Virus record (IMG/VR): IMGVR_UViG_3300033406_000043
Span: 1-24,730 of that record
DNA from: a virus
Lineage: Duplodnaviria > Caudoviricetes
Strand: one strand, 5' to 3'
Length of the DNA: 24,730 bases
Shown here one piece after another: positions 1 through 24,728 of the stretch. Under the pieces are notes generated by a model, which ran no database searches, was not told the origin of the DNA, and saw only the letters and a list, made by a program, of their open reading frames with translations. The position numbers and the translations under genes are program-made. The first letter of the stretch is position 1. Each line of letters opens with the position of its first letter.

Positions 1-463
1 TTTCCATGTTGTCACGAATCTTAACCCATAGGCTAGAAGTGGAGTCGATTTCGGTTTCTAGCTCGGTAATGACAGTTGCTACAGCCTCAGTTGAAGCATT
101 ACTAATCAGGTCGGACAGTTCACTCAGTACAGCAGTAATAACCGAAGTTACTGCGCTGGCAGTGGTTGCGACCATTGTGATAGTTCCGGTTACAGTATCG
201 CCAGCTTCTACGGTCACGGTAGCAGTATTAGAAGTGTACCCGTCCAGTGTTGCGGTAAAGGTCTGGCTCCCGGCCGCCAAGTCGCTAAAGGTTGCAGTAC
301 CATCGGTCCCGGTAGTAGCCGTGGTGGTCACTTCATCAATTGTTACGCTGACAGTCGCCCCGGATAACACCGTTTCGGCACTGTTTTGCACCGTGATGGT
401 GACAGCTCCGGTTGAAGCCGTTTCAGTATCGGCAAACCTCTGTAAATTAAAATTCGTTTTCAT
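1..463 (-). CDS. Ig-like (carboxypeptidase-regulatory/Big-type) beta-sandwich protein, truncated at window edge; N-terminal FNLQRFA motif
   Basis: Not in the ORF track because it has no stop in the window. Manual translation from ATG 463 (RBS AAGGATGTG): MKTNFNLQRFADTETASTGAVTITVQNSAETVLSGATVSVTIDEVTTTATTGTDGTATFSDLAAGSQTFTATLDGY...LWVKIRDNME. The GATV...TGTDG.A.F..L..G...TATLDGY pattern is typical of this fold. Confidence 0.75.
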   Translation of the reverse strand, partial: MKTNFNLQRFADTETASTGAVTITVQNSAETVLSGATVSVTIDEVTTTATTGTDGTATFSDLAAGSQTFTATLDGYTSNTATVTVEAGDTVTGTITMVATTASAVTSVITAVLSELSDLISNASTEAVATVITELETEIDSTSSLWVKIRDNME

Positions 464-673
464 GTTAAAAACACATCCTTTTATATTTTTTATTGTCCAC
501 CGCAGTAAACGGGCGATGGTCCGTAAACCAAACGGGACGGCCTTAGCCGCCTCCGCTTCGATCACATTAATAATCGCCACCCTTGCGGCCTGTAGTTCAG
601 CCTGCACTGGTGGCGACTCAGCAAGTTTTATGAGGTATGGTAACACCTGTTTTTCAACTTCTGCTATATCCAT
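464..673 (-). CDS. 70-codon helical hypothetical segment, in frame with the 463 gene (N-terminal extension or separate gene)
   Basis: ATG at 673, 2 nt after the protease stop, with RBS AGAGGT. MDIAEVEKQVLPYLIKLAESPPVQAELQAARVAIINVIEAEAAKAVPFGLRTIARLLRWTIKNIKGCVFN reads without a stop into ATG 463. Confidence 0.6.
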
Positions 674-675
674 GG

Positions 676-1419
676 CTAACCTCTGCTTGTCCAGCAATCA
701 CTGGAATATTTATCGTAGTAATCATACGGCAAATAAAAATAACCCAGGTCTCCCCAGGTTAGGCCCCAACTGTTCCTTACTATTAGGTGGGCTTTTTCAT
801 CGTCATAGCCCACTACTAATACTGCGTGACCGCCTAAATCTTGTTCTTTCGTGGTATCCGGCATCGGCACTATTCCAGTGCTGGTAACTCCGTCAGACTC
901 AAAGGATTCAAATACCTCAATACCGATAACAACTGGCAAGCCCTCTGCCAAGGCCGCTTTTAGTTGGGCCAAATCTGTTATGCGGTGGTATTCTTTTACC
1001 TTATACGGTGCGGCATCGGCAACCATTTTGTCAGTCGGTGGATTAGTGAACGTGGATATATCGTAGGGCCAGTCAGTCTCAGGGCACACGCCAATTTGAT
1101 TCAGTACTTTCATACCGTCCCGAATCATAGCGCCGCTGTCCTCGCTGACGGAATCCTCCATAAGACGTTCCTGGTAGTACAGAAACAGCCGGGAAAGTTG
1201 CAGCCACTTGGTCTCTTTGTTAATGAGCAAATACTCTCTGAGGCCGCTGGCAATCGCATTAGCCGTGCAGGAGCCTAACTCGCCTTGATTTACAATTGGA
1301 CTACATTTCTTTCGCAGGTCAACACTTGCCGGCAGTTGTTCTGTTTTTTTGAAACAGGCTGAACAAAATACATGATCGCGCATATCTGGGGTATCTTTTT
1401 TGAGTAGGTATTTACGCAT
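676..1419 (-). CDS. Papain-family (C1A) cysteine peptidase, xylellain-like
   Basis: Oxyanion Gln and catalytic Cys in NQGELGSCTANA, catalytic His in GGHAVLVVGY, Asn in IVRNSWG..WGDLGYFYLPY; DTPDMRD N-terminal segment; RBS AAGGAG; no signal peptide visible. Confidence 0.95.
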   Translation of the reverse strand: MRKYLLKKDTPDMRDHVFCSACFKKTEQLPASVDLRKKCSPIVNQGELGSCTANAIASGLREYLLINKETKWLQLSRLFLYYQERLMEDSVSEDSGAMIRDGMKVLNQIGVCPETDWPYDISTFTNPPTDKMVADAAPYKVKEYHRITDLAQLKAALAEGLPVVIGIEVFESFESDGVTSTGIVPMPDTTKEQDLGGHAVLVVGYDDEKAHLIVRNSWGLTWGDLGYFYLPYDYYDKYSSDCWTSRG

Positions 1420-1436
1420 AGAATCACACTCCTTAT

Positions 1437-1473
1437 AAAATTAAAAGCCGTCTACATTGATAGTAGCGGCTTT
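1437..1473 (-). terminator. Probable intrinsic terminator between endolysin and protease
   Basis: Minus strand AAAGCCGCTAC-TATCAAT-GTAGACGGCTTTTAATTTT: bulged stem followed by a U-rich tail. Confidence 0.55.
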
Positions 1474-1938
1474 CTAAACTAGATTAGGTAACATGGCATA
1501 CAAAGTATCGCCTGGGCAGTCTGTAGCATCACTTGGGTCATTAACAATGCCAGCAACGTCCCTGTGACCGATTATCTGAGCGTTGGGGTACTTGGCTTTA
1601 AGATCAGATAAGTTGTCTTTTAAGGCGGCAATTTGAGCATCTGTCGGTGTGTCTACGCCTTGAAAATTTCCTTCAAGCGTTATGCCAATCGACGTTTTGT
1701 TAACCCCATAAGCATGAGCGCCAATAGTATCATCCGGGCGGCCTTGAACCGTTGTGCCATCGCCTTTAATAACCCGGTGGTAAGCAATGCCATTATCTCC
1801 AATATTGATATGTTCTTGCCATATTGCTTGGGTATCTTGATTTTGTGGTCCATCGGTATGATGCACCACAATGTAATCAGTTGAGTTTCGCTGAGTAAGT
1901 TCGTGAGGCCAAGGCCAATCCTTTTGTACGATATTCAT
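1474..1938 (-). CDS. Endolysin, N-acetylmuramoyl-L-alanine amidase (Amidase_2, T7 lysozyme-like), catalytic domain only
   Basis: IVVHHT, IAYHRVI, GRP...GAHA, IIGHRD and TDCPG Zn-amidase motifs; directly follows the holin. Confidence 0.95.
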   Translation of the reverse strand: MNIVQKDWPWPHELTQRNSTDYIVVHHTDGPQNQDTQAIWQEHINIGDNGIAYHRVIKGDGTTVQGRPDDTIGAHAYGVNKTSIGITLEGNFQGVDTPTDAQIAALKDNLSDLKAKYPNAQIIGHRDVAGIVNDPSDATDCPGDTLYAMLPNLV

Positions 1939-2447: not shown

Positions 2448-5336
2448 TTATACTAAATAAGTAAACTGTAACCATACAAGTACAGTTGCGGCTTGGATGT
2501 CCGAGCCTTGTACCAATGCGGTGTTGTAAGAACTGTTAATCGTGGCAAGTTGAATATAATTTGTTCCGGAAACCGCAAACGCTGACCTTAAAACTCCACT
2601 CGACCCCCAGCCGGATTGCCTGCCTATTGTAATCGATGTATCAAAACTAAACGTAGACGGTAACCCAGAAATTCTAACATTGCCATCAATCGTACTGTCA
2701 ATTGTAGCAGTTATTGCAACATGCCCAAAAATAACATTACCAATTTTGGTATACGTGCCTTCCTGCACCGTATAAGTATGGCTCCCGGCTGTGGTAGAGC
2801 CTATTATTTTTGGGGTGAAAGTGCCACCCGTGACCACTGTACCGAGTACTTGCCAATCAGTTTTAGCACTTGTGCCATTTGCCAGATACGTATATCCATT
2901 AGTATTAATAAGTGATTGCCCTATAAATTTTGGTGCAGAGGTGGGTGCAGCAGTAGCTAATACTGGTTTTATGCCACCAAAAACGGTTTGTGTATATTCC
3001 GTTCCGTCAGGCAATGCTGTAATTAAGGACGCATCGTTTACAAAACTAACCTCCGAATACGCTGCAGTTAACCGCCATGGTTTGAAATTGCTAAGAATAA
3101 CATTTGAATAAGTTTTGTTATAACAAATATAGAAATCAATCACTTTATATTTTGTCGCTTCTTCAGTAACAACCCCAAAAACTGAAATTAAATTACTGGC
3201 GTTATTTTCTTCAACATTATTAGCGATTCGAAGAAAAGCCAAATCGTCTGTAATTGTGGATGCAGCTTGTATTTCAACCGATATGTTACCAGCTTGCGCG
3301 TAACTACCAGAAGTATTAGTCAAAAGATAATCTACTTTGAAACCGCACTCGCTTGCTCTTATTTTAACGGTTGCAAATTGAATATAACTTGTACTGCTGG
3401 TGCTCGAATTTGGCAGAACCACATTATCTGTATTACCAAACCTATTTCCGTTACAATCAACCCGTTCCCACGTTTCACCGGTTACATTTCGGTTGCCAGT
3501 ATCGATAAAATTTCCCTTGCACATTACCGCATCTCTCATATTTACAATAGGCACATCGAGAGACTTTATATATTGAATCAACGCTCTATAATCTGCAATT
3601 TCATCGTCGGTATCTACGTTTTGCGGGTGGGTGCAAAAAACTAACAGTAAATCATTCTCAATTGCGTAATCAACATCGGCTTTACATTTAGCTAGAGTAA
3701 CATTATCTTCGCCAATTCCACCACGCCGTTCGATATGATAATTATCAAATATACCTGTACGGCCTAGACCGGTAGTATCGTCTGCACCATCTACAAAGCC
3801 ACCGCCACTAACAAAGCCACAACGAAAATGTTTTCTTATAACCCGATCAGACATTTCGTTGTATTTTCCGTTAGGCGCGAAATAAAAATCATCGTCACAG
3901 CCATGTGCCGCTAATAATTTTTTTGATAATACAACATCAACTTCAAATTCTGTCTCTGTCACTGCCGTAGCATCAATGTGCGAATGAGAGTGAGAGGCAA
4001 CCGTCCAACCCGCTTTTTTCAACGCCACCACTTGGTCCCATGTTAAAAAATATGAGCTTACGCCAATGCTCTTAGTAATTATAGGTATTGTGCAGGGTAC
4101 ATTTTCAGCCTTTGGCCCAAAGATTTTCTCATAAAATACACTCCAAGCAGTTTTTTGACCATCATCACCAACGAAGGCAACCATAGCCCCCTTATAAGTG
4201 CCGCCAGGATGATTCGTTAGAGAGCCTTTAAACCATCTTAAATCAGTAATATCATCATCAGTAATCGTCGTTACTCCGGCATCAACCGCAATTTGAGCCA
4301 AAGCTAATGCACCATCTGGCAAGTCAGGAGCCGTTGAACTTGCCGCCGTACTAGTTGTTGCTGTTCCTTCTGTAATTACGCCAGTGCCAGTCACCGTCAT
4401 ACTTCCCGGAGTATTGCCGTCTCCTGCTGTATTCTCGGTTATGGTTATAACGCCGTCACTCGCGGTTGCCGTATATGTAGCACTAACAGTTGAGTTAGCG
4501 TTTAAAGCGGTTGCGAAATTAGTCATTGAAGTTGCTATATCAGAACCCAAAACAAAGTCCGCAGAATCTTGTGTCGCTGTTGTGACTGTGATGGTTATTC
4601 CGTCAAAAACAATTGTGTCACCGCTTGCGAAATTAGTTGTCAGCGTATAAGCGCAACTGCCAGCTACCGCCGCCGTGCCAAGATCACCAGCTAGGTAAGT
4701 AATTTCACCCGCCGAACTTACATATATTAGGTCAGTTCGCGGTAATGCGCTATCTGCTGTATCGATTGCCTGCGCTGATACTTCTGCTATTTCATAACGC
4801 TCACCACTTGACGGATGAATAATCCCTGCAGAAATAGCTACCGTCATATCTGCCGTTGATTGTGCCGTTACCGCAAGACCATATATTACACCATATCCGG
4901 TAGATTCTTGTATGGTAGTCTGCACAGTATCTAGCGGGTAGGCTGTGCCTTGCTGCGCTACCTCTTGAGCAATGGCCGCTGAAGCAGCAGAGTTAGACGC
5001 GCTATTTGTCGCTGAGGTTGCAGAAGCCGCCGCTGCCGTTGCGCTTGTTGCCGCGTTCTCTTCACTGGTTTTTGAATTTGCCTCATACGTAGCAAGTAAT
5101 GTTTCGGCAGCTGCCACTGTATCTGCTGCCGCTGTGGTCGCCGCCTCGGTTGCTACAACAGAGTATGCCGCCGATTCTGTTGCGCTTGCCGCGCTTGCAG
5201 TAGCATGGGCTAACGCATTGGCCTCGCTTGTGGCGGCATCTGTGGCACTGGTTGAGGCGGCATCCGAATAGTTTAGCACTTTTTGGGCCACTTTCTTATC
5301 TACAGTGGAGATTTGAACGCTTACAACTTCGCTCAT
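2448..5336 (-). CDS. Tail fibre/spike receptor-binding protein with internal CE4 (NodB-type) polysaccharide deacetylase domain
   Basis: Ala/Ser/Thr-rich N-terminal stalk (ATSEANA, KTSEENAATSA); CE4 motifs FVGDDG, ASHSHSH, FAPNG, FCTHP; C-terminal GTFTP...GTYTKIGNVI...ISGLP beta-sandwich typical of tail fibre ends. Confidence 0.85.
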   Translation of the reverse strand: MSEVVSVQISTVDKKVAQKVLNYSDAASTSATDAATSEANALAHATASAASATESAAYSVVATEAATTAAADTVAAAETLLATYEANSKTSEENAATSATAAAASATSATNSASNSAASAAIAQEVAQQGTAYPLDTVQTTIQESTGYGVIYGLAVTAQSTADMTVAISAGIIHPSSGERYEIAEVSAQAIDTADSALPRTDLIYVSSAGEITYLAGDLGTAAVAGSCAYTLTTNFASGDTIVFDGITITVTTATQDSADFVLGSDIATSMTNFATALNANSTVSATYTATASDGVITITENTAGDGNTPGSMTVTGTGVITEGTATTSTAASSTAPDLPDGALALAQIAVDAGVTTITDDDITDLRWFKGSLTNHPGGTYKGAMVAFVGDDGQKTAWSVFYEKIFGPKAENVPCTIPIITKSIGVSSYFLTWDQVVALKKAGWTVASHSHSHIDATAVTETEFEVDVVLSKKLLAAHGCDDDFYFAPNGKYNEMSDRVIRKHFRCGFVSGGGFVDGADDTTGLGRTGIFDNYHIERRGGIGEDNVTLAKCKADVDYAIENDLLLVFCTHPQNVDTDDEIADYRALIQYIKSLDVPIVNMRDAVMCKGNFIDTGNRNVTGETWERVDCNGNRFGNTDNVVLPNSSTSSTSYIQFATVKIRASECGFKVDYLLTNTSGSYAQAGNISVEIQAASTITDDLAFLRIANNVEENNASNLISVFGVVTEEATKYKVIDFYICYNKTYSNVILSNFKPWRLTAAYSEVSFVNDASLITALPDGTEYTQTVFGGIKPVLATAAPTSAPKFIGQSLINTNGYTYLANGTSAKTDWQVLGTVVTGGTFTPKIIGSTTAGSHTYTVQEGTYTKIGNVIFGHVAITATIDSTIDGNVRISGLPSTFSFDTSITIGRQSGWGSSGVLRSAFAVSGTNYIQLATINSSYNTALVQGSDIQAATVLVWLQFTYLV

Positions 5337-6102: not shown

Positions 6103-9100
6103 TTATTTACCCAGCATAACGGTTTTGTAATAAATGTTAGCTTTTTCTAGTTCCTTTAATTGTTCTCCATTCAATGACTGTTTGAATTTAACTTTGTCAG
6201 CTTTATTCAGGCCAGAAAGAGGATCAAGCGAATCAAGTGATTTTTTTAACCCTTTTTTATTGCCGCCAAGTTTAGTGTATTGGTCAAGATAAAAAGCCGC
6301 GCTCTGTTCGTCTTTAAGCCGCAAAGCCATCTTGTAATTGCGTAACGCGTCTGACTTAGGAGAACTAAAATCACCGTCGCCGCCTTTACCAATATCTTTT
6401 AGAAAATCTCGTTTTTTATCTTGAATGTTGTAATATGCTACTTGGCTAGGGTCTGATTTGTAGTAGATAAAATTTTCCCCTGTATTTTCTGTAAAATATG
6501 GTTTGCTTGGTCTAGGATTTATTCCCAATGCTTGGGCTGTGTCTGTTTTAGACAATGATTTGAATTCATTTCCAAGTCCCAAACTATCAGCAATGTATTG
6601 ACCATTATCATGTATGGTCTTAGGGTTAAATACATCAGGGTATAACTTTTTGCCAGATAGCATTTCAAATGGGCTTTTTATAAACGGAGACATCCCCTGG
6701 GCAACTTTATTTACAGGGCTTTTACCCCAATCTATAGCAATCTCTTTCATACTTCGGCTGCCGTCGAGATAATCTTTAATATCTTTAACAGGGGTGTCTA
6801 ATCCAAACCATTCTAAAAAGTCAGGAATCGAACCTAATCGGTTAAAGTATCTTACCTTACCATCTTTATCACGGCCTAAAATAATATGCGGGCTTGCTTG
6901 TTCATCCGGAGGCAATTCGTTTTCTTCACTTGGAAACATGAGATTATTATAGGCTTGTAGTGCGCCCCACATTATCCCGGCTTTAACGGTAAATGTTCCT
7001 AACGCATACGCATAATACGGGCTACGTATCAATACATTCCCAACAAGTTTCCTAGATATTGCGGCGCCAACTCCTGTCCAACTATCATCTTTTTGATTTT
7101 TAAAGAACTGAGCATAACGCTTAAAGTTGGTTTCTACGAATGACCAGAAGGGCCAAATATGTTCACGCAATTCCTTGCCGATAACTGAAATGTTGTCATA
7201 TGCGCCTAAAACATCATTGGACAATTTAAAAGCCCTGTCCCGTATATCGGGCAGAGCCATTATCTCCTCTGGTTTTGAAGCACCAAAATTTTTCGGCCTA
7301 CCACCTTTTTCTTGCATCTGCTTTAGATAATCTAAGTAGGTAGCGTATCGGAAAATAGCTTCTCTAAACTGCGTTGCTCGGTTAGCAGTACCCCAATACT
7401 TTTCCCATGCCTTTTTAATGAAATTAGGGTCTTTATCTGCAAACTTTTCAAACATGCGAAGACCGTTAATGTCGGTTAACTCCTGTACTGGTGAAGTCGT
7501 TTCCATGCCGCCGCGCCTGAACCATTCGCCCATTTCAGGAGACATGGCCCTGTCACCGTAAATAGTCTGGTACAGTTCTTTTGTGGCCTGTGGCACTCGC
7601 AAAAATGCGGTTCGGTTCATGGTAAACAGTGCATCAGCATCGCCAGTAACATTTCGTAGGTTATATTTTATAATCCTGGTCGGCGAAATTAGCGTCCAGA
7701 CCTTCCATAAACCTAATAGTTTTTTACTGTATTTGCTTAAAAAGTTGTCTGCCGGCTGTTCACTGATTTTATTCAACGTCTTGGCTACTTCATCTTTTAC
7801 GACTAATTCTTTAAACGGAGAACCTTTAGCAAGAACCTGTCTAACCTGATCGGCGGAAACGCCTACTTCTTCAAGTGCGCCACCTAACAATTTAGAAGCC
7901 AATGTCTCCGGTATTGAATTAGCCATATAGAACGAGCTGCCTTCGCGCGGCTGCCATAAGGTGTAACCGTCGGGAATATTCTCGCGCCACTTGTCACCAA
8001 ACGTATCGAATAATTCATTGCGAATACTGTAGTTTTTATCTACTTTCTTAATTGTGCGGGCTAGTTCGGTGTCATGTATCATTTGGGCCACTACTTCAAA
8101 TTCAGCTTGTAAATAATTAGCGTTTATATCCATTTCTGAACCTTCGCGGCCCTTTAAAAATCCACGATTGGTAGGAGTTTTAAGCCGCTGGCCTGTTCCA
8201 GTTACAGCCCTAAGATTGGCATAGTCTAAAACCTGGTGCCGGAAATAATCTTCACGGTTCATACGGTCAGACACATCAAAGCCAATATCTTTCATGGCCT
8301 GGATATAGTCTTGTTTTAATGCTTCTTGCATCCTTTTACGATTTGCTACTGCTTCGGCTACCACTGGATTATCCTTTACCGCATTATCAACTAGGGATTT
8401 TTCTTTTGTCAGCGTTTTTGGTGTTAGTCCAAAGGGTAAATCTCCTTCGGTTTTGGCTAAGTCGTCAAGGATTACCTTTCGCGTGAATAAATCTAGCCCC
8501 GGTTTATCCAGCTTGATTGTGATACCTTGCAAAAGTCGGGTAGTGCGATCACCAGCAACCGCCTTTTGCTTTTGGAGGTAAAGTAAATCATTTTTTAGTT
8601 GCGAAAATTCAGCTGAGTTTGGCAAATCTTCAAATACTCGAGTAGATTTTTGCCAGAAGGTTTTAACTGCTTCTTTGACTTTAGATATTATGCTTTCCTT
8701 TTTCAAACCTTTAGACGCTTCTTGCCAGCGTTTTTCTATTTCTGGATCACTAAACTTAACACCCTTGGTTGGCTCGGCAATTCCTTTAGTTTCCTTAACC
8801 GTCATGCCTATAGGTAAGTTAACGGGTTCAATTTCTTTGTTAACGGTATTGGCTAAGTCCCGTTCTACATCGCCTAATTTACCTTCGCCTAACTTTTGAG
8901 TTAATTCCTTATCCATATAGGTTGGCGGTTGCTCCATTGTAAGGGGTTGTCTTCCATTGACTTTACCCTTCCCAGCAGATATATTTGTCTTGGAAGATGT
9001 CAGGCTGCGTTCGGGTGTTGTAGGGCGGGCACCGTTCGATTCGGACGTATAGGGAGGGCTGGATTTTTCCGGCACGATCTGCGCAGAAGGCTTCTTCCAC

Positions 9101-11178
9101 ATTGTTTTACTGCGAAGTACACCCTTCTTTGGTATTACTGCTTCGACATAATAAACAGAGCCATTAATCCGCTTTTGATAAATTACAGATTGATGGCTTC
9201 CACTTGGCGATCCCTTTTTAATTGAGTCATACGAATTAATAATTTCCGGTATTTTTTTGAGGTCATCTGCCGTAAGGGGTAGCTGGCCTCTTTCTGATTC
9301 TTTTATTTCATTGCCATGCTCATTTATAGCATGGCGGATTTCATTTGTACTAATTTCGTGAGTAAATCCATCAACATCGACATGAGTTAGCTTTTTGATT
9401 GTAGCCGCTTCTTCGGGAGTCACTTCCCTTAATGGCATTGTTTCAAACTTAGAAGGATTATCTAAAGCGTTATCAACAAAACTGCTAACCTTTTCAGTAT
9501 CAATATTTGTAGTTGGGGCCTCGCCTATCATTTCTGGTTTAGCTTCACTTCGTTCTAAACCCGTTGTATCGTTGTCTGCTGTGGTTTCTGACTGGTTTTC
9601 TTCTTCTGATAATACAATTGTGTCAGCCTCATCTTTTTCTGCCGCTACAGGCGATTTTTCAAGGCTGATTTTCTCACCATCTAACGGCCTGCCGTAACCT
9701 GCAATCTTGCTCTGCCAGTAGTCAGTGTTAAGGTCAGTATACCCTACGCCATGCGAACCAGCATGAAGCATTTTGCCATCACCAGCGTAAATACCAACGT
9801 GAGTGATCTCCTTGTATCCGGTATTGTCAGAATAAGTATTTTTGAAGAATACCAAGTCGCCCGGTTGTAATTGGCTTGGATCGTCAAAGGTTTTGCCTTG
9901 TTCTTCTAGCCCTTTAAATTGTAGATCAGCGCGGCGAGTATTTAACTCAATGCCGTTCTGCGCAAATACGTCCAGCGTAAACTTGCCGCAATCGGTTGTA
10001 TCAGTACCATCGCCGCCCAATTGATACGGTTTGCCCAATTGTTGTTCGGCAGTAGTTATAATGTTATCGCCACCTGCTGATGTTTCGGAGGTTGCTGCCG
10101 CTTCATTATTACTTGGTCGCCGCCATTCACCAAATCCATCAATCACATTTTGAACTTCTGGCGGTGGAGTACGATCAATTTCGCCAGGCGGCACAATAGT
10201 AGGGCGGTCTGCTTCTGTTACTACTCCTTCTTTACCTGTTTCCGTTGGTTTCCCTTTAAGCCCCTTCAATCCACCGTATGCACCAAATATAGGTACAGCA
10301 ACATTAACGCCGCCCATAACCACATTTGCGATTGTAGCGGCAGGGTGTTCAGCTAACTTCTGCTGAAAATCTGGAGCGTTAACGGTTTGCAATAAAGGAT
10401 CAAGCCATATGCTTTTTATGCCTAATCCCAAAGATGTTGCTGGCCCATAGCCTTGCTGTGTCGCTTCTTGCGCCCCTTTGTAAAGTCCCTCGCCAGCTTG
10501 TAAACCGAAGGCCGCTTCTGCCGCTAGTGAACCTCCAGCAGTAAACGGAGCTGCCGCCACGCCTGCCGCCATTACGCCTGGGTATAAGGTTTCATTTCTA
10601 AAATTTGAATTTGCTTTGTCTAATAAGGTCTGTGCCGTGTCAACATCTTCCTGGGAATAACCAGGTTTAGGGACATATTTACCAGTAGCCGAATCGTACA
10701 TAGCAACAGCATCAAAACGGTTATTCTCTCTAGCCACTTCCTGGTAGCCCTGTATTGCACCAGTGCCGTAATTGGCAATACTATTACCAACATCGCTGAC
10801 AACGGCTGCGCCGCCTTCATTTTCTGCGTTAGTGGCGGCGTTGTATTCTTGCCCTACGTTTTTAATGCCATCTTTTATTGCGGCTAAAACAGGGTGATTT
10901 CTCTTAAATCTAAAATCCTTAAAGCCGTCGACAAAATCGCCAAAACCGTCAACAATATCGTTGTTTTTTGTTTTCGGGGTAATTTCATTTTCAATAGCAT
11001 TACCAACAGATTCAGCAGCATTACTTACGGCAGTATACTCCTGTTCATTGCTGGCATGAATTGCTTCATTTGCTTTTGTTTCTTGTTCAGAAAGATAATT
11101 ATAACCATCAACTAATTTATTTTTTGCATATTCGGCATTATTAGTTATAAAATCCCACGTATCAGTTAAAAGGCTCAT
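6103..11178 (-). CDS. Large internal virion (ejection/DNA transfer) polyvalent protein with NlpC/P60 peptidase and PBECR-like domains
   Basis: Third gene of the ejection cluster, about 1690 aa. NlpC/P60 motifs LGKPYQLGG..TDCGKFT, LQPGDLVFF, ITHVGIY, MLHAGS; IRHAINEHG..GQLPLTADDLKKIPEII PBECR-like segment; long helical C-terminal region resembling large polyvalent proteins. Start set to ATG 11178. Confidence 0.8.
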   Translation of the reverse strand: MSLLTDTWDFITNNAEYAKNKLVDGYNYLSEQETKANEAIHASNEQEYTAVSNAAESVGNAIENEITPKTKNNDIVDGFGDFVDGFKDFRFKRNHPVLAAIKDGIKNVGQEYNAATNAENEGGAAVVSDVGNSIANYGTGAIQGYQEVARENNRFDAVAMYDSATGKYVPKPGYSQEDVDTAQTLLDKANSNFRNETLYPGVMAAGVAAAPFTAGGSLAAEAAFGLQAGEGLYKGAQEATQQGYGPATSLGLGIKSIWLDPLLQTVNAPDFQQKLAEHPAATIANVVMGGVNVAVPIFGAYGGLKGLKGKPTETGKEGVVTEADRPTIVPPGEIDRTPPPEVQNVIDGFGEWRRPSNNEAAATSETSAGGDNIITTAEQQLGKPYQLGGDGTDTTDCGKFTLDVFAQNGIELNTRRADLQFKGLEEQGKTFDDPSQLQPGDLVFFKNTYSDNTGYKEITHVGIYAGDGKMLHAGSHGVGYTDLNTDYWQSKIAGYGRPLDGEKISLEKSPVAAEKDEADTIVLSEEENQSETTADNDTTGLERSEAKPEMIGEAPTTNIDTEKVSSFVDNALDNPSKFETMPLREVTPEEAATIKKLTHVDVDGFTHEISTNEIRHAINEHGNEIKESERGQLPLTADDLKKIPEIINSYDSIKKGSPSGSHQSVIYQKRINGSVYYVEAVIPKKGVLRSKTMWKKPSAQIVPEKSSPPYTSESNGARPTTPERSLTSSKTNISAGKGKVNGRQPLTMEQPPTYMDKELTQKLGEGKLGDVERDLANTVNKEIEPVNLPIGMTVKETKGIAEPTKGVKFSDPEIEKRWQEASKGLKKESIISKVKEAVKTFWQKSTRVFEDLPNSAEFSQLKNDLLYLQKQKAVAGDRTTRLLQGITIKLDKPGLDLFTRKVILDDLAKTEGDLPFGLTPKTLTKEKSLVDNAVKDNPVVAEAVANRKRMQEALKQDYIQAMKDIGFDVSDRMNREDYFRHQVLDYANLRAVTGTGQRLKTPTNRGFLKGREGSEMDINANYLQAEFEVVAQMIHDTELARTIKKVDKNYSIRNELFDTFGDKWRENIPDGYTLWQPREGSSFYMANSIPETLASKLLGGALEEVGVSADQVRQVLAKGSPFKELVVKDEVAKTLNKISEQPADNFLSKYSKKLLGLWKVWTLISPTRIIKYNLRNVTGDADALFTMNRTAFLRVPQATKELYQTIYGDRAMSPEMGEWFRRGGMETTSPVQELTDINGLRMFEKFADKDPNFIKKAWEKYWGTANRATQFREAIFRYATYLDYLKQMQEKGGRPKNFGASKPEEIMALPDIRDRAFKLSNDVLGAYDNISVIGKELREHIWPFWSFVETNFKRYAQFFKNQKDDSWTGVGAAISRKLVGNVLIRSPYYAYALGTFTVKAGIMWGALQAYNNLMFPSEENELPPDEQASPHIILGRDKDGKVRYFNRLGSIPDFLEWFGLDTPVKDIKDYLDGSRSMKEIAIDWGKSPVNKVAQGMSPFIKSPFEMLSGKKLYPDVFNPKTIHDNGQYIADSLGLGNEFKSLSKTDTAQALGINPRPSKPYFTENTGENFIYYKSDPSQVAYYNIQDKKRDFLKDIGKGGDGDFSSPKSDALRNYKMALRLKDEQSAAFYLDQYTKLGGNKKGLKKSLDSLDPLSGLNKADKVKFKQSLNGEQLKELEKANIYYKTVMLGK

Positions 11179-11180
11179 AA

Positions 11181-12689
11181 TCAACCGCCCGCCTCTTGTA
11201 TTTTCTTAGTCATATAGGCTTCGATTTCTTCGGTTGTGGCATCTGGATACTTAGCTTTTATAGCATTTGCTACAGTATAATACCAAGTCGCGTTCGGATC
11301 GTCTTGTGGTGCTGATAGGCGAGGCTGTTCTGGTTGACTATTACCTCCAATAATCGAAAGGTAATGGTTTACTCTTGATTTTAATAAGCTATAAGCATTC
11401 CATTTTGTATCGGTAAAACTTTCTGGATCGGCATTATATTCGCTTTCCAGTTGCTGTATTTTTAATGTATCGTTTGTTAATTGTGATTTACCATATTTAA
11501 TTGCCCACGACTCATCAGATGTAGCTGTTCCTTTTGCATTCTTGGTAATAATTTTAACTTTGCCATCTATAAAGCGTTGACAGGTTAATCTATCAGAAGG
11601 TTGTAAATCAGCCTTGTCTAAAATACTTTGCATAGTAGCAGGGTCATTTGTATATTTTAACATTTCGCCCAAGGTACTTTGGTAAGTAGCTTTATTATTT
11701 GCCGTTTGAGTTTCCCTTGCAAAAGCTAAATTAGAACGGTAGGTTTTAAAATATGTATCAAATTCTTCTTTGTTGCCGTATTTATCTTTTAAGTATTTAA
11801 GTCCTTTATCACCGTCTGTTCCGAACATTGAAATAAGACTATCAGATATTTTCTGGGCAGTTTGTTTTGTAATAGCAGGTTTAAGTTTTGCCTCAATGTC
11901 GGCATAAGTGCCAGCATCTACTTTGTCATTAAACCATTTTAATTCTGAATTTGCCGCATCTATATTACCGTCAGTTATTAATCCTAAAATGCTACTTTTG
12001 ATTGCACTATTCCAACGGGTTGAAACATTATTATCTATTTCCTGTTGAGTTAATCCATTTTTTTGGCCAAAGCTTTGTTCATTAGCTTTAATATCTAACA
12101 TATTTTGGTCAGCTAATTTCAAAATAGCATTATTAGAATCTAACTGCCCTTGCTGTGATGCTAATGCCATATTGCTTTGAAACGAACGTCCCAACGTATC
12201 ACTGGTGGCCGTGTAGTTATCTTTAAACGCTACGTCTTGCTGCTGGTGCTGATGTTCCATTGCTGCTTGTTGGTATTTTGCTGATGGTTCTGCCCACGAT
12301 CTGGTGAATATAGCCTGTTGGCGTGGATTTAGCGATTTTAGCGCATCATTTTTAATTTGGTCTAAAGCCGTGGTGCTCTGTTGGGTCATGCTCGGTATTG
12401 CGGCTTGGTCTGGAGTCGCTTCTTTGCCAAGCGCGTTAGCACCTTTTAAATAAAAAAGCCCATTATCGCCATAAAACGAATCATGGACTTTATTCATTGC
12501 ATCATTATAGGCCGTGGTAACAGCCAAGGTGTCTTGATTATCTTGGTAAGCTTTCATGCCTTGCCCTAGTGTTTCCATGCCCTTAAAGGCACTTGCACCA
12601 AAGGCATCAGGGCCAACATTTACACTTGCCCTAACCGAAGGGGCTTGGTTAATTTGTACGGAAGTTTGATATGTTGGTATTTGGGGCAC
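11181..12689 (-). CDS. Internal virion/ejection protein (T7 gp15 positional analogue)
   Basis: Start revised to GTG 12689 (RBS AAGAGGTG), giving MPQIPTYQ...; helical, Gln/Ala-rich; lies between the gp14-like gene and the large ejection gene. Confidence 0.7.
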   Translation of the reverse strand: MPQIPTYQTSVQINQAPSVRASVNVGPDAFGASAFKGMETLGQGMKAYQDNQDTLAVTTAYNDAMNKVHDSFYGDNGLFYLKGANALGKEATPDQAAIPSMTQQSTTALDQIKNDALKSLNPRQQAIFTRSWAEPSAKYQQAAMEHQHQQQDVAFKDNYTATSDTLGRSFQSNMALASQQGQLDSNNAILKLADQNMLDIKANEQSFGQKNGLTQQEIDNNVSTRWNSAIKSSILGLITDGNIDAANSELKWFNDKVDAGTYADIEAKLKPAITKQTAQKISDSLISMFGTDGDKGLKYLKDKYGNKEEFDTYFKTYRSNLAFARETQTANNKATYQSTLGEMLKYTNDPATMQSILDKADLQPSDRLTCQRFIDGKVKIITKNAKGTATSDESWAIKYGKSQLTNDTLKIQQLESEYNADPESFTDTKWNAYSLLKSRVNHYLSIIGGNSQPEQPRLSAPQDDPNATWYYTVANAIKAKYPDATTEEIEAYMTKKIQEAGG

Positions 12690-21040: not shown

Positions 21041-21856
21041 TTATCGCCTCCTATACGGGTCATGTCTTGATTTGGCCTTTACGATTGTGGGCTTATGGTC
21101 CACATTAAAAATAGACGCCGCGACATAGCCGATAGCGTCCATCATATGGGAATATTCGTTTTTGTCCGGTTCTTCTAGCAGCACACCAGCGACTTCCTTA
21201 CGATGGTAGCCGCCAGTAAACGCACCTATAATCCAAGTACAGCGCGGATCAATCAGTATCATCGGCTGACCGTCCGGAGTTAAACTGGTTAGTTTCTTCC
21301 TGACAGCCTCCCAACGGGCCATAGCCGCCACTGGTCCTGGTAGTACCGTAATGCTATATTCACTGCGTAACAACTCATTTGCTGTCTTTTCATCGTTTTG
21401 GCTACGCTGGTTGCCTGCCGGATCGCCGTAATCGTTGAACTGATACCCAGGGAAGTATGTACCTGACTCAGCCCTAACCACCTGACCGTGTGCAAGTATA
21501 CCGCAATCCGTTGACTGCAACTCAGGGTATAGTATCAATAGCTGGCCCTTGGCTGTGGTCTGGCAGAAACAGGTCGCAGGAGTTAACCCATAGTCCCAAC
21601 CTCTTACCACTGGTCTGCCTTGTACTGGCTGTAGTGGTTCTTTGGCTACATGGAAATCCATGCGAAACTCAGGATACCATGGTTTGCCAGGATACACATG
21701 GAAGTTTATTTCATATTCCCTTTCCCACTGCGCCTGGGTCAACCCCTTGCGCTGCTCTGCTGCCCACTCGGGTGTGGATTTGTCAGGGTCGGCAGTGTAA
21801 TGCAACCGCAAAATGTGGACACCCTGCGGCGTTTTATATTCAGTGATTCCTTGCAT
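21041..21856 (-). CDS. terL: Terminase large subunit, C-terminal part (lid segment plus RNase H-like nuclease)
   Basis: RLHYTADP..WEREYEINF, RGWDYG (catalytic Asp), GDPAG, IDPRC, SHMMDAIGY; own RBS AGGAGG 7 nt before the ATG. Confidence 0.9.
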   Translation of the reverse strand: MQGITEYKTPQGVHILRLHYTADPDKSTPEWAAEQRKGLTQAQWEREYEINFHVYPGKPWYPEFRMDFHVAKEPLQPVQGRPVVRGWDYGLTPATCFCQTTAKGQLLILYPELQSTDCGILAHGQVVRAESGTYFPGYQFNDYGDPAGNQRSQNDEKTANELLRSEYSITVLPGPVAAMARWEAVRKKLTSLTPDGQPMILIDPRCTWIIGAFTGGYHRKEVAGVLLEEPDKNEYSHMMDAIGYVAASIFNVDHKPTIVKAKSRHDPYRRR

Positions 21857-21878
21857 TTCCTAGCCTCCTGGCACTACA

Positions 21879-21906
21879 ACGTCCGATAACAATCGTTATG
21901 ACAACC
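21879..21906 (+). other. XerC/XerD dif-like recombination site (11-6-11)
   Basis: ACGTCCGATAA-CAATCG-TTATGACAACC; each arm matches 8/11 to B. subtilis dif as recalled (ACTTCCTAGAA / TTATGTAAACT), with the inner ATAA-N6-TTATG core intact. Confidence 0.7.
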
Positions 21907-21944
21907 AAAAATCTGTTTATACAGCGTATGCAATGGTTTTGACC

Positions 21945-21989
21945 TGCATTTTTGATAGTTTTATGCAAAATATGCAGTATAAATATACA
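21945..21989. promoter_or_regulatory. ARG-box-like palindromes, putative Xer accessory sequence
   Basis: AGTATAAATATACA (21976-21989) and TGCAAAATATGCA (21964-21976) plus further TGCAT half-sites, resembling the ArgR/AhrC consensus TGMAT-W4-ATKCA. Confidence 0.4.
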
Positions 21990-22032
21990 AAAACACTGTT
22001 TTAGCAGTGCCAACCGCGAACGCATAAACCTA

Positions 22033-22680
22033 TCATATTTCACCCTCTACAATTCGTTGAAAAAATCCTGGTCCTGCGCTAGAAATCAGCGTAACTTTAC
22101 CGCCGCCCTGTATGATTGGCTTCAATGCTCCCCAAGTTTCTTCCGCTGATTCCCAGAACGCAAATTCATCTAGCATAGCATAAGAGGCGGTGTACTGTCG
22201 CAACTGGTCAGCACCTTGGCCTATTGCCTTGACATACGAACCGTTGTTGAACGCTAATTCATATTGTTTGCGCTTGCACTCAGGCCAAGGATAACCTTCC
22301 GGCAGGTGGTCATATATAAACTTCATGCGCTTATCGCTAATCAGAAAGTCGCTATCATCAGCTTTCTTTGATTGCACAAATACTGCGCTGTTGGGTCTAA
22401 ATACAGCCGCCCATAAATGAAGTCCAAGCATAATCCAGGTCAGCATCATGCGGCGCGTCTTAGGGATTGCCAGTATGTTCTCGCGCTCCCACACTTCGCA
22501 AGTGTACCGTAAATAGTCCTTGTCAGGGTATCGCTTCACCAGGCCGTTGTCAGCTTCGTCGACTGTCAGGCAACAGTCTAATATCCATCGCCAAGGGCTA
22601 TTAGACCATACTTTCATTTCTTGGCGGCGCAATAACTCCTGTTTAACCTTAACCTTCTTTTCAAGCGCGGCCCTATTCAT
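22033..22680 (-). CDS. terL: Terminase large subunit, N-terminal ATPase part
   Basis: Variant Walker A IPKTRRMMLTW, NNGSYV, Walker B AMLDEFAF, coupling motif LISSA; stops 13 residues later. Confidence 0.9.
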   Translation of the reverse strand: MNRAALEKKVKVKQELLRRQEMKVWSNSPWRWILDCCLTVDEADNGLVKRYPDKDYLRYTCEVWERENILAIPKTRRMMLTWIMLGLHLWAAVFRPNSAVFVQSKKADDSDFLISDKRMKFIYDHLPEGYPWPECKRKQYELAFNNGSYVKAIGQGADQLRQYTASYAMLDEFAFWESAEETWGALKPIIQGGGKVTLISSAGPGFFQRIVEGEI

Positions 22681-23089
22681 CTAATATCGCTTGCAATTCT
22701 TCATCGGTCATTTTGCTAAAGTCATCGTCTTTAGAAGTATCATCAGCACCAGAATATTTTAGCCGTGTATCAATTACCTTGTTTAGCCGATCAAACACCA
22801 TCAGTCGTTCACTGATTCGCAAATTATCATCATTAAACCAGTTATGCAATTTATCACGGGTATTTTGCAATATGTCCAGGTCAGTAGTGACCGTCTGCTT
22901 GATGTGCTCGTTGATAGTCTCTTTAGTCTGCGCTGACCGCTCTTTGCGGTGTTCGTTAATGATTTTGCCGATGCTAACATTGCTAACTTTAATTCCCTGA
23001 TTGCTAAGATAAGTCTCTATTTGCCGATTAGACATTGTTGCCGATAAAGCTAGTATTTGCGCGGATACTTCGGGTGTTATTCTAGCCAA
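22673..23089 (-). CDS. terS: Terminase small subunit (HTH-containing)
   Basis: TTG start with RBS AAGGGGTG; N-terminal HTH-like MSNRQIETYL..VSNVSIGK; C-terminal DFSKMTDEELQAI; overlaps the terL start. Confidence 0.7.
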   Translation of the reverse strand: MARITPEVSAQILALSATMSNRQIETYLSNQGIKVSNVSIGKIINEHRKERSAQTKETINEHIKQTVTTDLDILQNTRDKLHNWFNDDNLRISERLMVFDRLNKVIDTRLKYSGADDTSKDDDFSKMTDEELQAILDE

Positions 23090-23326: not shown

Positions 23327-23472
23327 AGCGTAAACTCTTCAACTTTCACTTCTCATCACTCCCCATAAAAAATACAATAAAAACGCCTCCATGATTTTCA
23401 GGGTAATATCTGGGCAAATATTAAATACGTATAGCGCTGTTGCTATAGCCCACCCAACAATAACAATGATTT

Positions 23473-23703
23473 TCATTGCCTGCGCCTCACTATCTCCCGC
23501 AGCTCATCCCGGCTAATATTGCCGTCATGCACTATTCTATGGCATTGCCAGCACAGCAATATAAGGTTGCCCGGCACATCATCGCCTCTTGCCCCACGGC
23601 TCTTTATGTGATGCGCTTGCAAATTAAAATGGCTACCGCAATATTCGCAGTAGCCTATCTGATGTATGCGCTGTATTAACTTTTTATCAACAATCCGTTT
23701 CAT
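23473..23703 (-). CDS. HNH endonuclease (packaging-associated type)
   Basis: CEYCG, AHHIKSRG..G.D...NLILLCWQCHRIVH; upstream of the terminase genes. Confidence 0.9.
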   Translation of the reverse strand: MKRIVDKKLIQRIHQIGYCEYCGSHFNLQAHHIKSRGARGDDVPGNLILLCWQCHRIVHDGNISRDELREIVRRRQ

Positions 23704-23873
23704 TTCAGCACACCATTACGCCTGCCCTGCCTAACTGGTTCATGGTTGAGTGCCGTACTACCTCGCGGCTCATACTTGGTACACTGTCCCTTGACCAGCT
23801 TCACCCTTTTAGCTGTGCAATTGTCTATGCCGTGATGCTCACAGTCGCGGCGGTCACATTCTACTGTCGGCAT
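23700..23873 (-). CDS. Small Cys-rich protein, DUF1540-like (57 aa)
   Basis: Below the track cutoff. MPTVECDRRDCEHHGIDNCTAKRVKLVKGQCTKYEPRGSTALNHEPVRQGRRNGVLK; RBS GAGGTG; ATGA overlap with the HNH gene. Confidence 0.7.
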   Translation of the reverse strand: MPTVECDRRDCEHHGIDNCTAKRVKLVKGQCTKYEPRGSTALNHEPVRQGRRNGVLK

Positions 23874-23884
23874 ATTATCACCTC

Positions 23885-23916
23885 AAATAAAAAAGCACTC
23901 GCCAATTAGCAAGTGC
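23885..23916 (-). terminator. Intrinsic terminator upstream of the first late gene
   Basis: Minus strand GCACTTGC-TAATTG-GCGAGTGC-TTTTTTATTT. Confidence 0.7.
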
Positions 23917-23979
23917 CGTACTTTACAACGGGGCCGAAGCCCCAAAAGGAAGGTAGTAATGAACAAACTTCTTAATATC

Positions 23980-24018
23980 ATAGTAACACGGAAAAAACGC
24001 TATTGAGTATGATACTCA
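23980..24018 (-). promoter_or_regulatory. Putative activator-dependent late promoter
   Basis: Extended -10 TG-T-TACTAT (23988-23980), no consensus -35, and a perfect palindrome TGAGTAT-N-ATACTCA (24004-24018) over the -35 region, right after the activator stop. Confidence 0.55.
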
Positions 24019-24510
24019 TTAAAAACAGCCTCGTTTATACGCTAATATCCTGGTCAGCCCTACTATTTCTTTCCACCAGGATGTCAATGTCTGGTCGCTT
24101 ATCCACCATCGGTCTATCATGCTGCTGTTATTTAATTCAGCCATTCTTTCTGCATAATGCCGTTGTACATATACTCGCCAAACCTCATGCCCATTTACTG
24201 TCATGTTCTTTTGCCTAGCTTCTCGGCGAACGTCAAGGAATGTCCTCTTTTTCGGGCCAAGCATACTTTCTACCAACTCAATAGTAAGCAGCCACTTTTC
24301 AGCCTGGTCAAGTTCCTCCAAACGGACAACCTTCTGCACAACCACATTGCCAGCGCCTGTCCTTACGTAGACCTCAGGCATAGAGCGCTCATCCTGGATA
24401 TAGTTAAGGTCGCTAAAATACTGTTTCTTGCGGTCTTCGTAGAATAGTAGCCATTCGGCAGCCGTTTCAAAGTCTTGTCCAATTTCTCTCAAAATATCTT
24501 CTCTCCCCAC
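24019..24510 (-). CDS. Late transcriptional activator, ArpU/RinA-like
   Basis: Start revised to GTG 24510 (RBS GGGAGGGG); EKWLLTIELVESMLGPKKRTFL and C-terminal HTH-like ISDQTLTSWWKEIV...AYKRG; last gene before the packaging module. Confidence 0.75.
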   Translation of the reverse strand: MGREDILREIGQDFETAAEWLLFYEDRKKQYFSDLNYIQDERSMPEVYVRTGAGNVVVQKVVRLEELDQAEKWLLTIELVESMLGPKKRTFLDVRREARQKNMTVNGHEVWRVYVQRHYAERMAELNNSSMIDRWWISDQTLTSWWKEIVGLTRILAYKRGCF

Positions 24511-24533
24511 GCTAACCCCTCCCCACAAATCAA

Positions 24534-24728
24534 TTAAATCTCAAACGTAGTTGAACCGTACAATACTAATTCTCTATACACTCTAGTACTTTCGTTGAGT
24601 ATTTTCCGATTGCACTTTTCAAACCACTTATACATATCTTTAGTGATTATTGTGCTATGTTTTGGCCTTATAACCCACAAATAATTAATTTGCTTTTTGT
24701 ACTCTCTTGATATTAGCCGCTTTCTATT
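24534..24728 (-). CDS. 3' end of a hypothetical protein running off the window
   Basis: 64 open codons (NRKRLISREY...YRELVLYGSTTFEI) ending in TAA just upstream of the activator RBS. Confidence 0.5.
   Translation of the reverse strand, partial: NRKRLISREYKKQINYLWVIRPKHSTIITKDMYKWFEKCNRKILNESTRVYRELVLYGSTTFEI

What the first reader, a model, noticed from the sequence alone, without database searches (positions are those of the whole stretch)
21879..21906. Xer dif-like site sitting inside the terminase locus
Seen: a 28-bp 11-6-11 element ACGTCCGATAA-CAATCG-TTATGACAACC in the non-coding gap between the two terL parts, with 8/11 identity per arm to B. subtilis dif and a divergent spacer. Established: host XerC/D resolves plasmid multimers at cer/psi and integrates IMEX elements such as CTX at dif. 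Inference: this tailed phage uses host Xer recombinases. The spacer differs from the dif spacers I know (TATATA, TGTATA) and the site is in mid-operon, so multimer resolution of circular phage DNA is more likely than use as attP. A Xer site coupled to packaging genes could control the monomer/concatemer balance.
Basis: partly seen in the sequence, partly recalled or inferred. Interest (0 to 1): 0.85.

Follow-up and report, generated by a model that had tools for sequence, protein, structure and literature searches.

The report
Borrowed host Xer site beside terminase
This soil podophage carries, in a short insert between the two halves of its DNA-packaging gene, a close copy of the site where bacteria's own XerC/XerD enzymes separate fused chromosomes, and similar copies cluster beside packaging genes in many other phages, so host enzymes likely close incoming phage DNA into a circle and keep it single.

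Summary
The 28-bp element is real. Its XerC-side arm matches the chromosomal dif candidates of two MAGs 10/11 and 11/11; the phage contig is binned in one of them. The XerD-side arm matches 7/11, the spacer 1/6. It scores 22.6 bits (next best in the window 6.2; 2 of 2000 simulated windows reach it).

It sits in a 177-bp insert between two genes of a naturally split terL; the closest terL relative lacks it. Three related phages carry their own single site near terS. One is a complete phage-plasmid-like genome (ParA, RepA, no recombinase found), 97% identical just upstream but with a different terL.

In 26 independent viral records, 13 dif-like sites lie near the terL start, against 5.3 expected.

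Best reading (0.5): a Cre-less 'loxP'. Host XerCD would join the two copies on a headful-packaged chromosome and also resolve prophage dimers. The divergent spacer argues against integration at dif. Binding, recombination, pac position and packaging mode are untested.

This scan noted the same pattern earlier on other genomes; my paper searches found no description.

The parts
21879..21906 (+). dif-like Xer core site, 11-6-11; single copy in the window
   Evidence: 22.6 bits, next 6.2
21879..21889 (+). XerC-side arm; 11/11 to the G002 dif candidate, 10/11 to the G001 candidate, identical in 20 of 32 class sites printed
   Evidence: arm assignment by analogy to E. coli/B. subtilis dif, PMC5357621 passage
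21890..21895 (+). 6-bp spacer, 1/6 identical to either host dif candidate
21896..21906 (+). XerD-side arm, degenerate (7/11 to host dif candidates); the identical arm recurs in viral loci L357/L362
21857..22032 (.). AT-rich gap (37.5% GC), 177 bp longer than the stop/start overlap of the nearest kin; no other copy found in G001 or G002; no Rfam match
21864..21869 (-). ribosome-binding site inside the insert, 7 nt before the terL nuclease start; would replace the lost translational coupling
   Evidence: sequence; function inferred
21992..22011 (-). terminator-like hairpin just after the terL ATPase stop; chance level (4 found, 2.9 expected in the region)
22033..22680 (-). terminase large subunit, ATPase half (215 aa)
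   Evidence: phrog_2/phrog_5989 E ~1e-6; T4 gp17 E 6e-5
21041..21856 (-). terminase large subunit, nuclease half (271 aa), separate gene
   Evidence: 19 of 42 family members hit phrog_6672 terL; fused to the ATPase half in 41 loci; GenBank relatives annotated TerL
22673..23089 (-). probable terminase small subunit and predicted location of pac; its start is 1.2 kb from the site
   Evidence: position and 70% identity to the same-position gene of L004; no family hit, so inferred
23472..24536 (-). HNH and late-regulator region, 93-97% identical in three blocks to phage-plasmid-like G236

Best explanation
The element is a close copy of the host's XerC/XerD core site, lying in a 177-bp insert 1.2 kb after the start of the probable small-terminase gene, and host XerCD likely recombines two copies of it on the same phage DNA, which would close a headful-packaged, terminally redundant chromosome into a circle and would also split dimers of a predicted plasmid prophage. 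Shown: arm identity to host dif, divergent spacer, single copy, insertion status, recurrence near terS in relatives, enrichment near terL in unrelated phages, and plasmid genes with no detected recombinase in the closest complete relative. Inferred: headful packaging; pac in or near terS; redundancy long enough to duplicate the site; Xer binding and activation (FtsK-type translocase or XerC-first exchange); a plasmid lifestyle for this phage. The divergent spacer would keep the site from recombining with chromosomal dif.
For: (1) Left arm 11/11 and 10/11 to the best-scoring dif candidates of G002 and G001; both genomes have XerC-like and XerD-like genes; the phage contig is binned in G001 and a related prophage lies on a 229-kb G001 scaffold. 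(2) Relatives G152 (26.5 bits) and G236 (30.4 bits) each have one site between the probable terS and terL, and G153 (16.0 bits) has one just before terS. All lie in the same orientation, with different spacers. (3) G236 has a different, single-gene terL yet a site in the same region. Its lysis and late-regulator regions are 82% and 97% identical to the window's two ends. It has ParA, RepA_C and a repressor pair, and no tyrosine, large serine or resolvase hit. G152 has a 71% identical ParA. (4) Two phages sharing the same late regulator but with lambda-GpA-type terL (cos packaging, recalled) have no site above 10 bits in the loci scanned (n=2, one a fragment). (5) Of 50 top-scoring viral sites, 37 records had a terL hit; 20 of 37 sites lay within -2.5 to +2 kb of its start (4.5 expected). 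After collapsing clones and weighting for non-coding space, 13 of 26 (5.3 expected, P 1.6e-4). A second pattern gave 12 of 17 (5.7 expected). (6) Precedent: Bacillus phage B83 (headful, circular plasmid form, cut just upstream of terS) has its own Xer-family recombinase gene between terS and terL (PMC6669507 passages), with a 13-6-13 inverted repeat beside it. Phage L has pac in terS and about 2.5 kb of redundancy (PMC8022706 passage).
Against: The site scores below all 13 chromosomal training sites and has changes in the XerD arm, so it may be weak or decaying. Only three identical copies of the insert were seen (window, L001, L007), so selection on it cannot be tested. Most terL kin lack a site: none above 13 bits in L002, L003, L004/L009, L006, L008, L019, L020, L029, L104 (several are short), and only one of 41 fused-terL loci (L106, 14.5 bits). 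G153 has both a site and a tyrosine integrase. Many sites lie upstream of terS (G153; several), which needs pac to lie further upstream. Half of the sites in the 26-record test are not near terL. Orientation is not fixed (17:3:8). G236 and G152 encode Sak4-like annealing proteins that could circularise by homology. Chromosomal dif needs FtsK and plasmid sites need supercoiling and accessory proteins (PMC5357621 section 9; PMC2800217 passages); no accessory motif was found. Packaging mode, pac and this phage's early region were not seen (record 47% complete). Short IMG/VR records may be enriched for terL, and my ORF-based non-coding null is crude.
Confidence: 0.5

Rival explanations
1. Functional host-Xer site used only to resolve dimers of a circular plasmid prophage or of theta-replicating DNA (cer/psi or chromid-dif style); its place by the terminase genes is incidental.
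For: The two nearest site-bearing relatives with no detected integrase both carry ParA, and G236 also RepA_C. Most plasmid prophages carry their own Xer-like recombinase for dimer resolution (PMC8026635 passages); G236 has none detected. Integrating relatives G154 and G155 have serine integrases and no site.
Against: ParA in only 2 of 50 records. Dimer resolution works at any position, yet sites cluster at terL after correcting for non-coding space. Here the site sits in a normally coupled junction. No ARG-box-like signal.
Confidence: 0.25
2. A real but decayed or passenger Xer site, brought in with a scrap of foreign DNA and no longer used.
For: Lowest score against the training set and a changed XerD arm; absent from the closest terL relatives; no second variant of the insert to test conservation.
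Against: The XerC arm is intact 11/11, the same XerD-arm variant recurs in L357/L362, and three relatives independently hold a site in the same region.
Confidence: 0.1
3. attP for integration at chromosomal dif (IMEX, like CTX, VGJ or TLC).
For: Arm pattern (good XerC arm, divergent XerD arm) resembles TLC and GGI attP; VGJ attP has four spacer differences (PMC5357621 passages). Few site-bearing records have an integrase: 5 of 50 tyrosine, 3 of 50 large serine. G152's spacer equals a common host spacer.
Against: Spacer 1/6 identical to host dif. Integration here would split the terminase genes. The G001 dif flanks show no phage genes in 1.5 kb each side (ORFs inspected, not family-scanned). 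One site per record, no attL/attR pair.
Confidence: 0.07
4. The site is bound by XerC/XerD without recombination and acts as a roadblock or regulator for FtsK, RNA polymerase or the packaging motor.
For: XerCD bound to dif stops FtsK without cleavage or synapsis (PMC2800217 passages); the site is 22 bp from the terL nuclease start.
Against: Position relative to genes and orientation vary among phages; nothing links binding to expression.
Confidence: 0.05
5. Chance resemblance.
For: Matrix partly circular; the two arms are only 5/11 palindromic.
Against: 2 of 2000 simulated windows; non-coding position; matching sites in relatives.
Confidence: 0.02

Closest known systems
Phage P1 loxP/Cre (circularisation of headful DNA and plasmid dimer resolution)
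   Same: Single tyrosine-recombinase core near the packaging genes. P1 is a headful plasmid prophage with Cre (PMC8026635 Table 1). Two lox sites in one head allow circularisation at the next infection (PMC2841073 passage). loxP's place within the redundancy is recalled, not read.
   Different: No recombinase gene in the window or in complete relative G236; the site mimics host dif, so the host enzyme would be borrowed.
Bacillus phage vB_BtS_B83
   Same: Bacillota host, headful, circular plasmid form, Xer-family function placed between terS and terL (PMC6669507 passages).
   Different: B83 encodes its own recombinase; its candidate site does not resemble this dif matrix (best 2.6 bits).
Plasmid Xer sites cer (ColE1) and psi (pSC101)
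   Same: Host XerCD core with a non-dif spacer, on an extrachromosomal element, single copy.
   Different: cer has an 8-bp spacer and about 180 bp of accessory DNA for PepA/ArgR. Here the spacer is 6 bp, only 22 bp of the insert lie on the XerC side, and no ARG-box-like signal was found.
IMEX attP sites (CTX, VGJ, TLC, dif-type DJR phages)
   Same: Phage-borne dif mimic with intact XerC arm.
   Different: Described for filamentous and other non-tailed phages (PMC12715192 passages); here a tailed phage, spacer 1/6 to dif, site between terminase genes, no integration seen.
Chromosomal dif of the host class
   Same: 11-6-11 layout, left arm identical to the modal arm.
   Different: Divergent spacer and outer XerD arm; on a phage.

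Membership tests
XerCD core site (dif-like) | 11-6-11 layout with arms matching the host's dif above chance | tested here: met
XerCD core site (dif-like) | host encodes XerC and XerD | tested here: met
   G001 and G002 each have best hits to TIGR02224 and TIGR02225; catalytic domains only, below whole-protein cut-offs; host link rests on binning and a related prophage
XerCD core site (dif-like) | binds and is recombined by XerC/XerD | not testable with these tools
   needs EMSA and recombination assay
Chromosomal dif | on the chromosome, with the conserved spacer | tested here: not met
   phage contig; spacer 1/6; a separate chromosomal candidate exists in G001
cer/psi multimer-resolution site | about 180 bp accessory sequence with ArgR/ArcA and PepA sites | tested here: inconclusive
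   best ARG-box-like match reached by 267 of 500 shuffles, recalled consensus; no shared flank among four related sites; accessory factors in this host are unknown
cer/psi multimer-resolution site | carried on a circular autonomous replicon | tested here: inconclusive
   early region missing from the window; nearest complete relative has ParA and RepA_C; no close ParA homologue in G001
IMEX attP | integration at dif, giving attL/attR hybrids | tested here: not met
   not seen: single site, no second copy, no phage genes beside G001 dif; assemblies are incomplete
IMEX attP | no integrase of its own | tested here: inconclusive
   none in the 47%-complete window; none in G236; one in G153
pdif module | pair of sites flanking a cargo gene | tested here: not met
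   one site in the window and one in each of 28 site-bearing records scanned whole
P1 loxP-like cyclisation site | lies within the terminal redundancy after pac | not testable with these tools
   no reads listed; 1.2 kb from the probable terS start fits a 2.5-kb redundancy as in phage L
P1 loxP-like cyclisation site | headful packaging | tested here: inconclusive
   ATPase half hits phrog_2 and T4 gp17 weakly, not lambda GpA; these families do not fix the mode
P1 loxP-like cyclisation site | phage-encoded recombinase next to the site | tested here: not met
   none in window or G236

The most novel reading that the evidence does not exclude
Many unrelated tailed phages have independently placed a host dif mimic next to pac so that host XerC/XerD, not a phage recombinase, circularises their terminally redundant DNA on entry: a widespread 'loxP without Cre'. 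This phage would have re-acquired such a site inside its split terL after a head-module swap removed the one its plasmid-like backbone carried.
Probability: 0.4. Interest if true: 0.88.

Novelty: new variant of a known kind. Interest (0 to 1): 0.72.

Why it matters
Host Xer is known to serve plasmids and non-tailed integrating phages. If tailed phages use it to circularise or monomerise their genomes, xerC/xerD/ftsK become host factors for infection. It would also explain how headful phages and phage-plasmids without a recombinase manage, and dif-like arms would become a sequence marker for host assignment and for pac position. About 960 IMG/VR stretches match one 14-base pattern. The unspecified dif positions are enriched among them (89 of 120 and 60 of 120), so the class is large and testable with a simple two-site assay.

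Tried and rejected
Intron, structured RNA or mobile element in terL: no Rfam match (best E 5.3); fold z -1.3 on the coding strand and -2.5 on the other; no second copy in G001/G002; the split is a family trait.

67-aa ORF across the insert: no family hit; an open frame appears in 64 of 1000 shuffles on that strand; left open but unlikely.

ARG-box accessory site: chance.

KOPS/SRS-type polarity (recalled motifs): 4 versus 0 octamers on the coding strand in the window and in G236, confounded by purine-rich coding strands, so not used.

Fixed orientation relative to terL: suggested, contradicted; rejected.

General plasmid lifestyle of site-bearing phages: rejected.

Rest of the genome: G001 contigs C72, C154 and C9 resemble G236's early region but do not overlap the window.

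Cultured phages with the same site: none by blastn (low sensitivity at this length).

Sequencing runs: none was listed.

The terL nuclease profile had no PDB hit.

Paper searches for this arrangement returned nothing on point. A search for the packaging mode of related podophages gave two listings that I did not read. The D6 paper (PMC5800970) was not held.

Full report
OBSERVATION. The 28-mer is at 21879-21906, with 8/11 identity per arm to the B. subtilis dif listed by Kono et al. (PMC3025954, supplement 2 rows). The window is a 24.7-kb, 47%-complete fragment of a podophage with GP7 capsid, Bbp16 and Head-tail_con portal. All head genes are on the minus strand.

SETTING. The two flanking ORFs are the ATPase half (215 aa) and the nuclease half (271 aa) of terL. 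Of 168 loci with a nuclease-half match, 30 show two separate genes, 41 show one fused gene, and 97 distant loci gave no ATPase-half match and were not classed (many loci are redundant). The nearest kin have overlapping stop and start codons, and some others have whole genes in between. The window therefore holds a 177-bp insert that brings its own ribosome-binding site. It is not a recognised RNA and has no second copy in G001 or G002.

IS IT A XER SITE? An identical phage contig is binned in MAG G001, and a related prophage lies on a 229-kb G001 scaffold. G001 and G002 each yield one strong non-coding dif candidate and XerC-like and XerD-like genes. The window's left arm matches them 10/11 and 11/11, the right arm 7/11 and the spacer 1/6. 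In 151 genomes of the class, 70 had a match to a dif pattern against 12 for the reversed control. The spacer, which the pattern left free, came out as a T....TA type in 27 of the 32 sites printed. A matrix from 13 distinct sites scores the window site 22.6 bits, the next best 6.2; 2 of 2000 simulated windows reach it. All training sites score higher (27.8-36.1), and the training patterns were partly shaped by this site. The published Symbiobacterium dif has the same left arm.

RELATIVES. A scan of 1.29 Mb of terL-family loci at 13 bits or more found, besides copies of the window, L018 (26.5), L030 and its duplicates (16.0), L022 (15.7) and L106 (14.5). Most kin, including the closest (L004/L009, record G154, a provirus with a serine integrase), have none. 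L018's site lies between the probable terS and terL; L030's lies just before terS. G153 (L030) also has a tyrosine integrase. A search with the late-regulator gene found G236, a complete circular 45.3-kb record. It is 97% identical to window 23915-24536 and 82% to window 1-1434. It has a different single-gene terL, yet one site (30.4 bits, other spacer, same orientation) between its probable terS and terL. G236 encodes ParA, RepA_C and a repressor pair, with no hit to phrog_1, PF07508 or PF00239; 43 of its ORFs were also scanned against PHROGs. G152 (L018) has a 71% identical ParA. The window's head module is G154-like while its two ends are G236-like. I infer, without seeing the missing half, a plasmid-type backbone that swapped head modules and holds a new site in the new module. 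Two phages with the same late regulator but GpA-type terL have no comparable site.

WIDER PATTERN. A 14-base pattern gave 120 viral matches (about 960 estimated). Unspecified dif positions were enriched: 89 of 120 and 60 of 120. I kept the 80 records of 14.8 kb or more, leaving out one duplicate, and ranked them. Of the top 50, 37 had a phrog_2 terL hit; 20 of 37 sites were within -2.5 to +2 kb of its start against 4.5 expected. That window was my choice, not fixed in advance. I then dropped 7 clonal records (all near) and 4 records over 100 kb (all far) and weighted by non-coding space with a crude ORF caller: 13 of 26 against 5.3 expected, P 1.6e-4; each record had a single site. Among the 30 weaker sites, 17 had terL and 4 of 17 were near (distances worked out by hand). 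A second pattern gave 25 matches; without the window's own copy and duplicates, 12 of 17 were near a terL against 5.7 expected. Two of those terL calls are weak (L364 at E 2e-5; L373 by position), two are the relatives above, and many records are short. Orientation was 17:3 in the first set and 4:8 in the second, so it is not fixed. Tyrosine integrases were found in 5 of 50 records, large serine recombinases in 3 of 50 and ParA in 2 of 50; these are overlapping but different sets, and many records are incomplete.

MECHANISM. In headful phages pac lies in or near terS and the first chromosome of a series carries the DNA after pac twice, about 2.5 kb in phage L (PMC8022706 passages; PMC6669507 passages). 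A recombination core placed there is duplicated in direct repeat, and one exchange gives a unit circle. P1 does this with loxP/Cre (position recalled; PMC2841073 passage; PMC8026635 table). B83 has its own Xer-family gene between terS and terL, with a 13-6-13 inverted repeat beside it. The window's site is 1.2 kb from the probable terS start, and those of G152 and G236 are 0.57 kb from theirs. I therefore favour host-Xer circularisation, with dimer resolution of a plasmid prophage as a second use (0.5). Against this: activation on linear DNA would need FtsK-type help or a XerC-first route; Sak4-like proteins offer another route; some sites lie upstream of terS; and neither pac nor packaging mode was observed. 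Rivals are dimer resolution only (0.25), relic (0.1), attP (0.07), roadblock (0.05) and chance (0.02).

WHAT IS KNOWN. Papers seen: PMC3025954 (supplement 2 part 1 and searched rows); PMC5357621 (passages and section 9); PMC11652158, PMC2841073, PMC8022706, PMC12715192, PMC6669507, PMC9703825, PMC2800217, PMC8026635, PMC11769102 (passages); others as search listings only. Searches found no account of host dif mimics beside terminase genes in tailed phages. The library lacks most subscription journals and bioRxiv supplements are closed, so this is not proof of absence. This scan's own earlier notes report the same pattern on other genomes. They are unchecked and not independent evidence, but they moved me from 'position incidental' to testing position.

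VERDICT. It is a real host-type Xer core and one member of a large class of terminase-adjacent sites that I did not find described. It works most likely like P1 loxP but is not a member of that system (no phage recombinase), nor shown to be cer/psi, pdif or IMEX. New variant of a known kind; interest 0.72.

Noticed in passing
window 21041-22680; L023-L051, L097-L119; L021, L029, L030, L123, L135, L144: terL family that occurs fused (41 loci, 506-522 aa), split with overlapping stop/start, or split with whole genes between the halves (HNH-like ORF in L030; several ORFs in L029, L021, L135).
   Followed up: partly
G236 (L477-L479): Complete 45.3-kb podophage with ParA, a partner ORF, RepA_C and a repressor pair but no detected recombinase: a candidate phage-plasmid of this host class.
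   Followed up: yes
L504:1880-1911 (Bacillus phage B83): 13-6-13 inverted repeat (11 of 13 matched) just upstream of the phage's recombinase gene, between terS and terL; candidate target site, or an operator.
   Followed up: partly
L455:3955, L456:3382, L216, L218, L221, L449, L450, L451: Second dif-like sites with variant spacers in host-class chromosomes. Those in L455 and L456 lie just upstream of tyrosine integrases; L221's directly follows a 326-aa ORF that looks recombinase-like (not scanned).
   Followed up: partly
window 21840-22043 (-): 67-codon frame open across the whole insert; no family hit; 64 of 1000 shuffles give an open frame on that strand.
   Followed up: partly
window 21916-22035: Overlapping inverted repeats (21953-21966 with 22022-22035; 21916-21929 with 21970-21983) and a terminator-like hairpin on the XerD side of the site; fold z-score -2.5 on the plus strand.
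   Followed up: partly
window 6103-11184 (-): 1693-aa probable internal virion protein with NlpC/P60 and PBECR3 nuclease-like domains.
   Followed up: no
window 2448-5336 (-): 962-aa probable tail protein with a polysaccharide deacetylase domain.
   Followed up: no
window 1-1475; L464, L465: Papain-like peptidase and carboxypeptidase-regulatory-domain genes 72-76% identical to two places in G002 and 82% to G236.
   Followed up: no
G001 contigs C72, C154, C9 (L499-L501): Small phage early-region contigs 70-95% identical in blocks to G236; not linked to the window.
   Followed up: partly
one search hits (5-7 kb records, some named microvirus): Several small virus records carry near-copies of this host class's dif in unannotated DNA.
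   Followed up: no
L009:10820-11110; window 21064-21075: The same ribosome-binding motif precedes three successive small ORFs between terL and portal in the related prophage, and one in the window.
   Followed up: no
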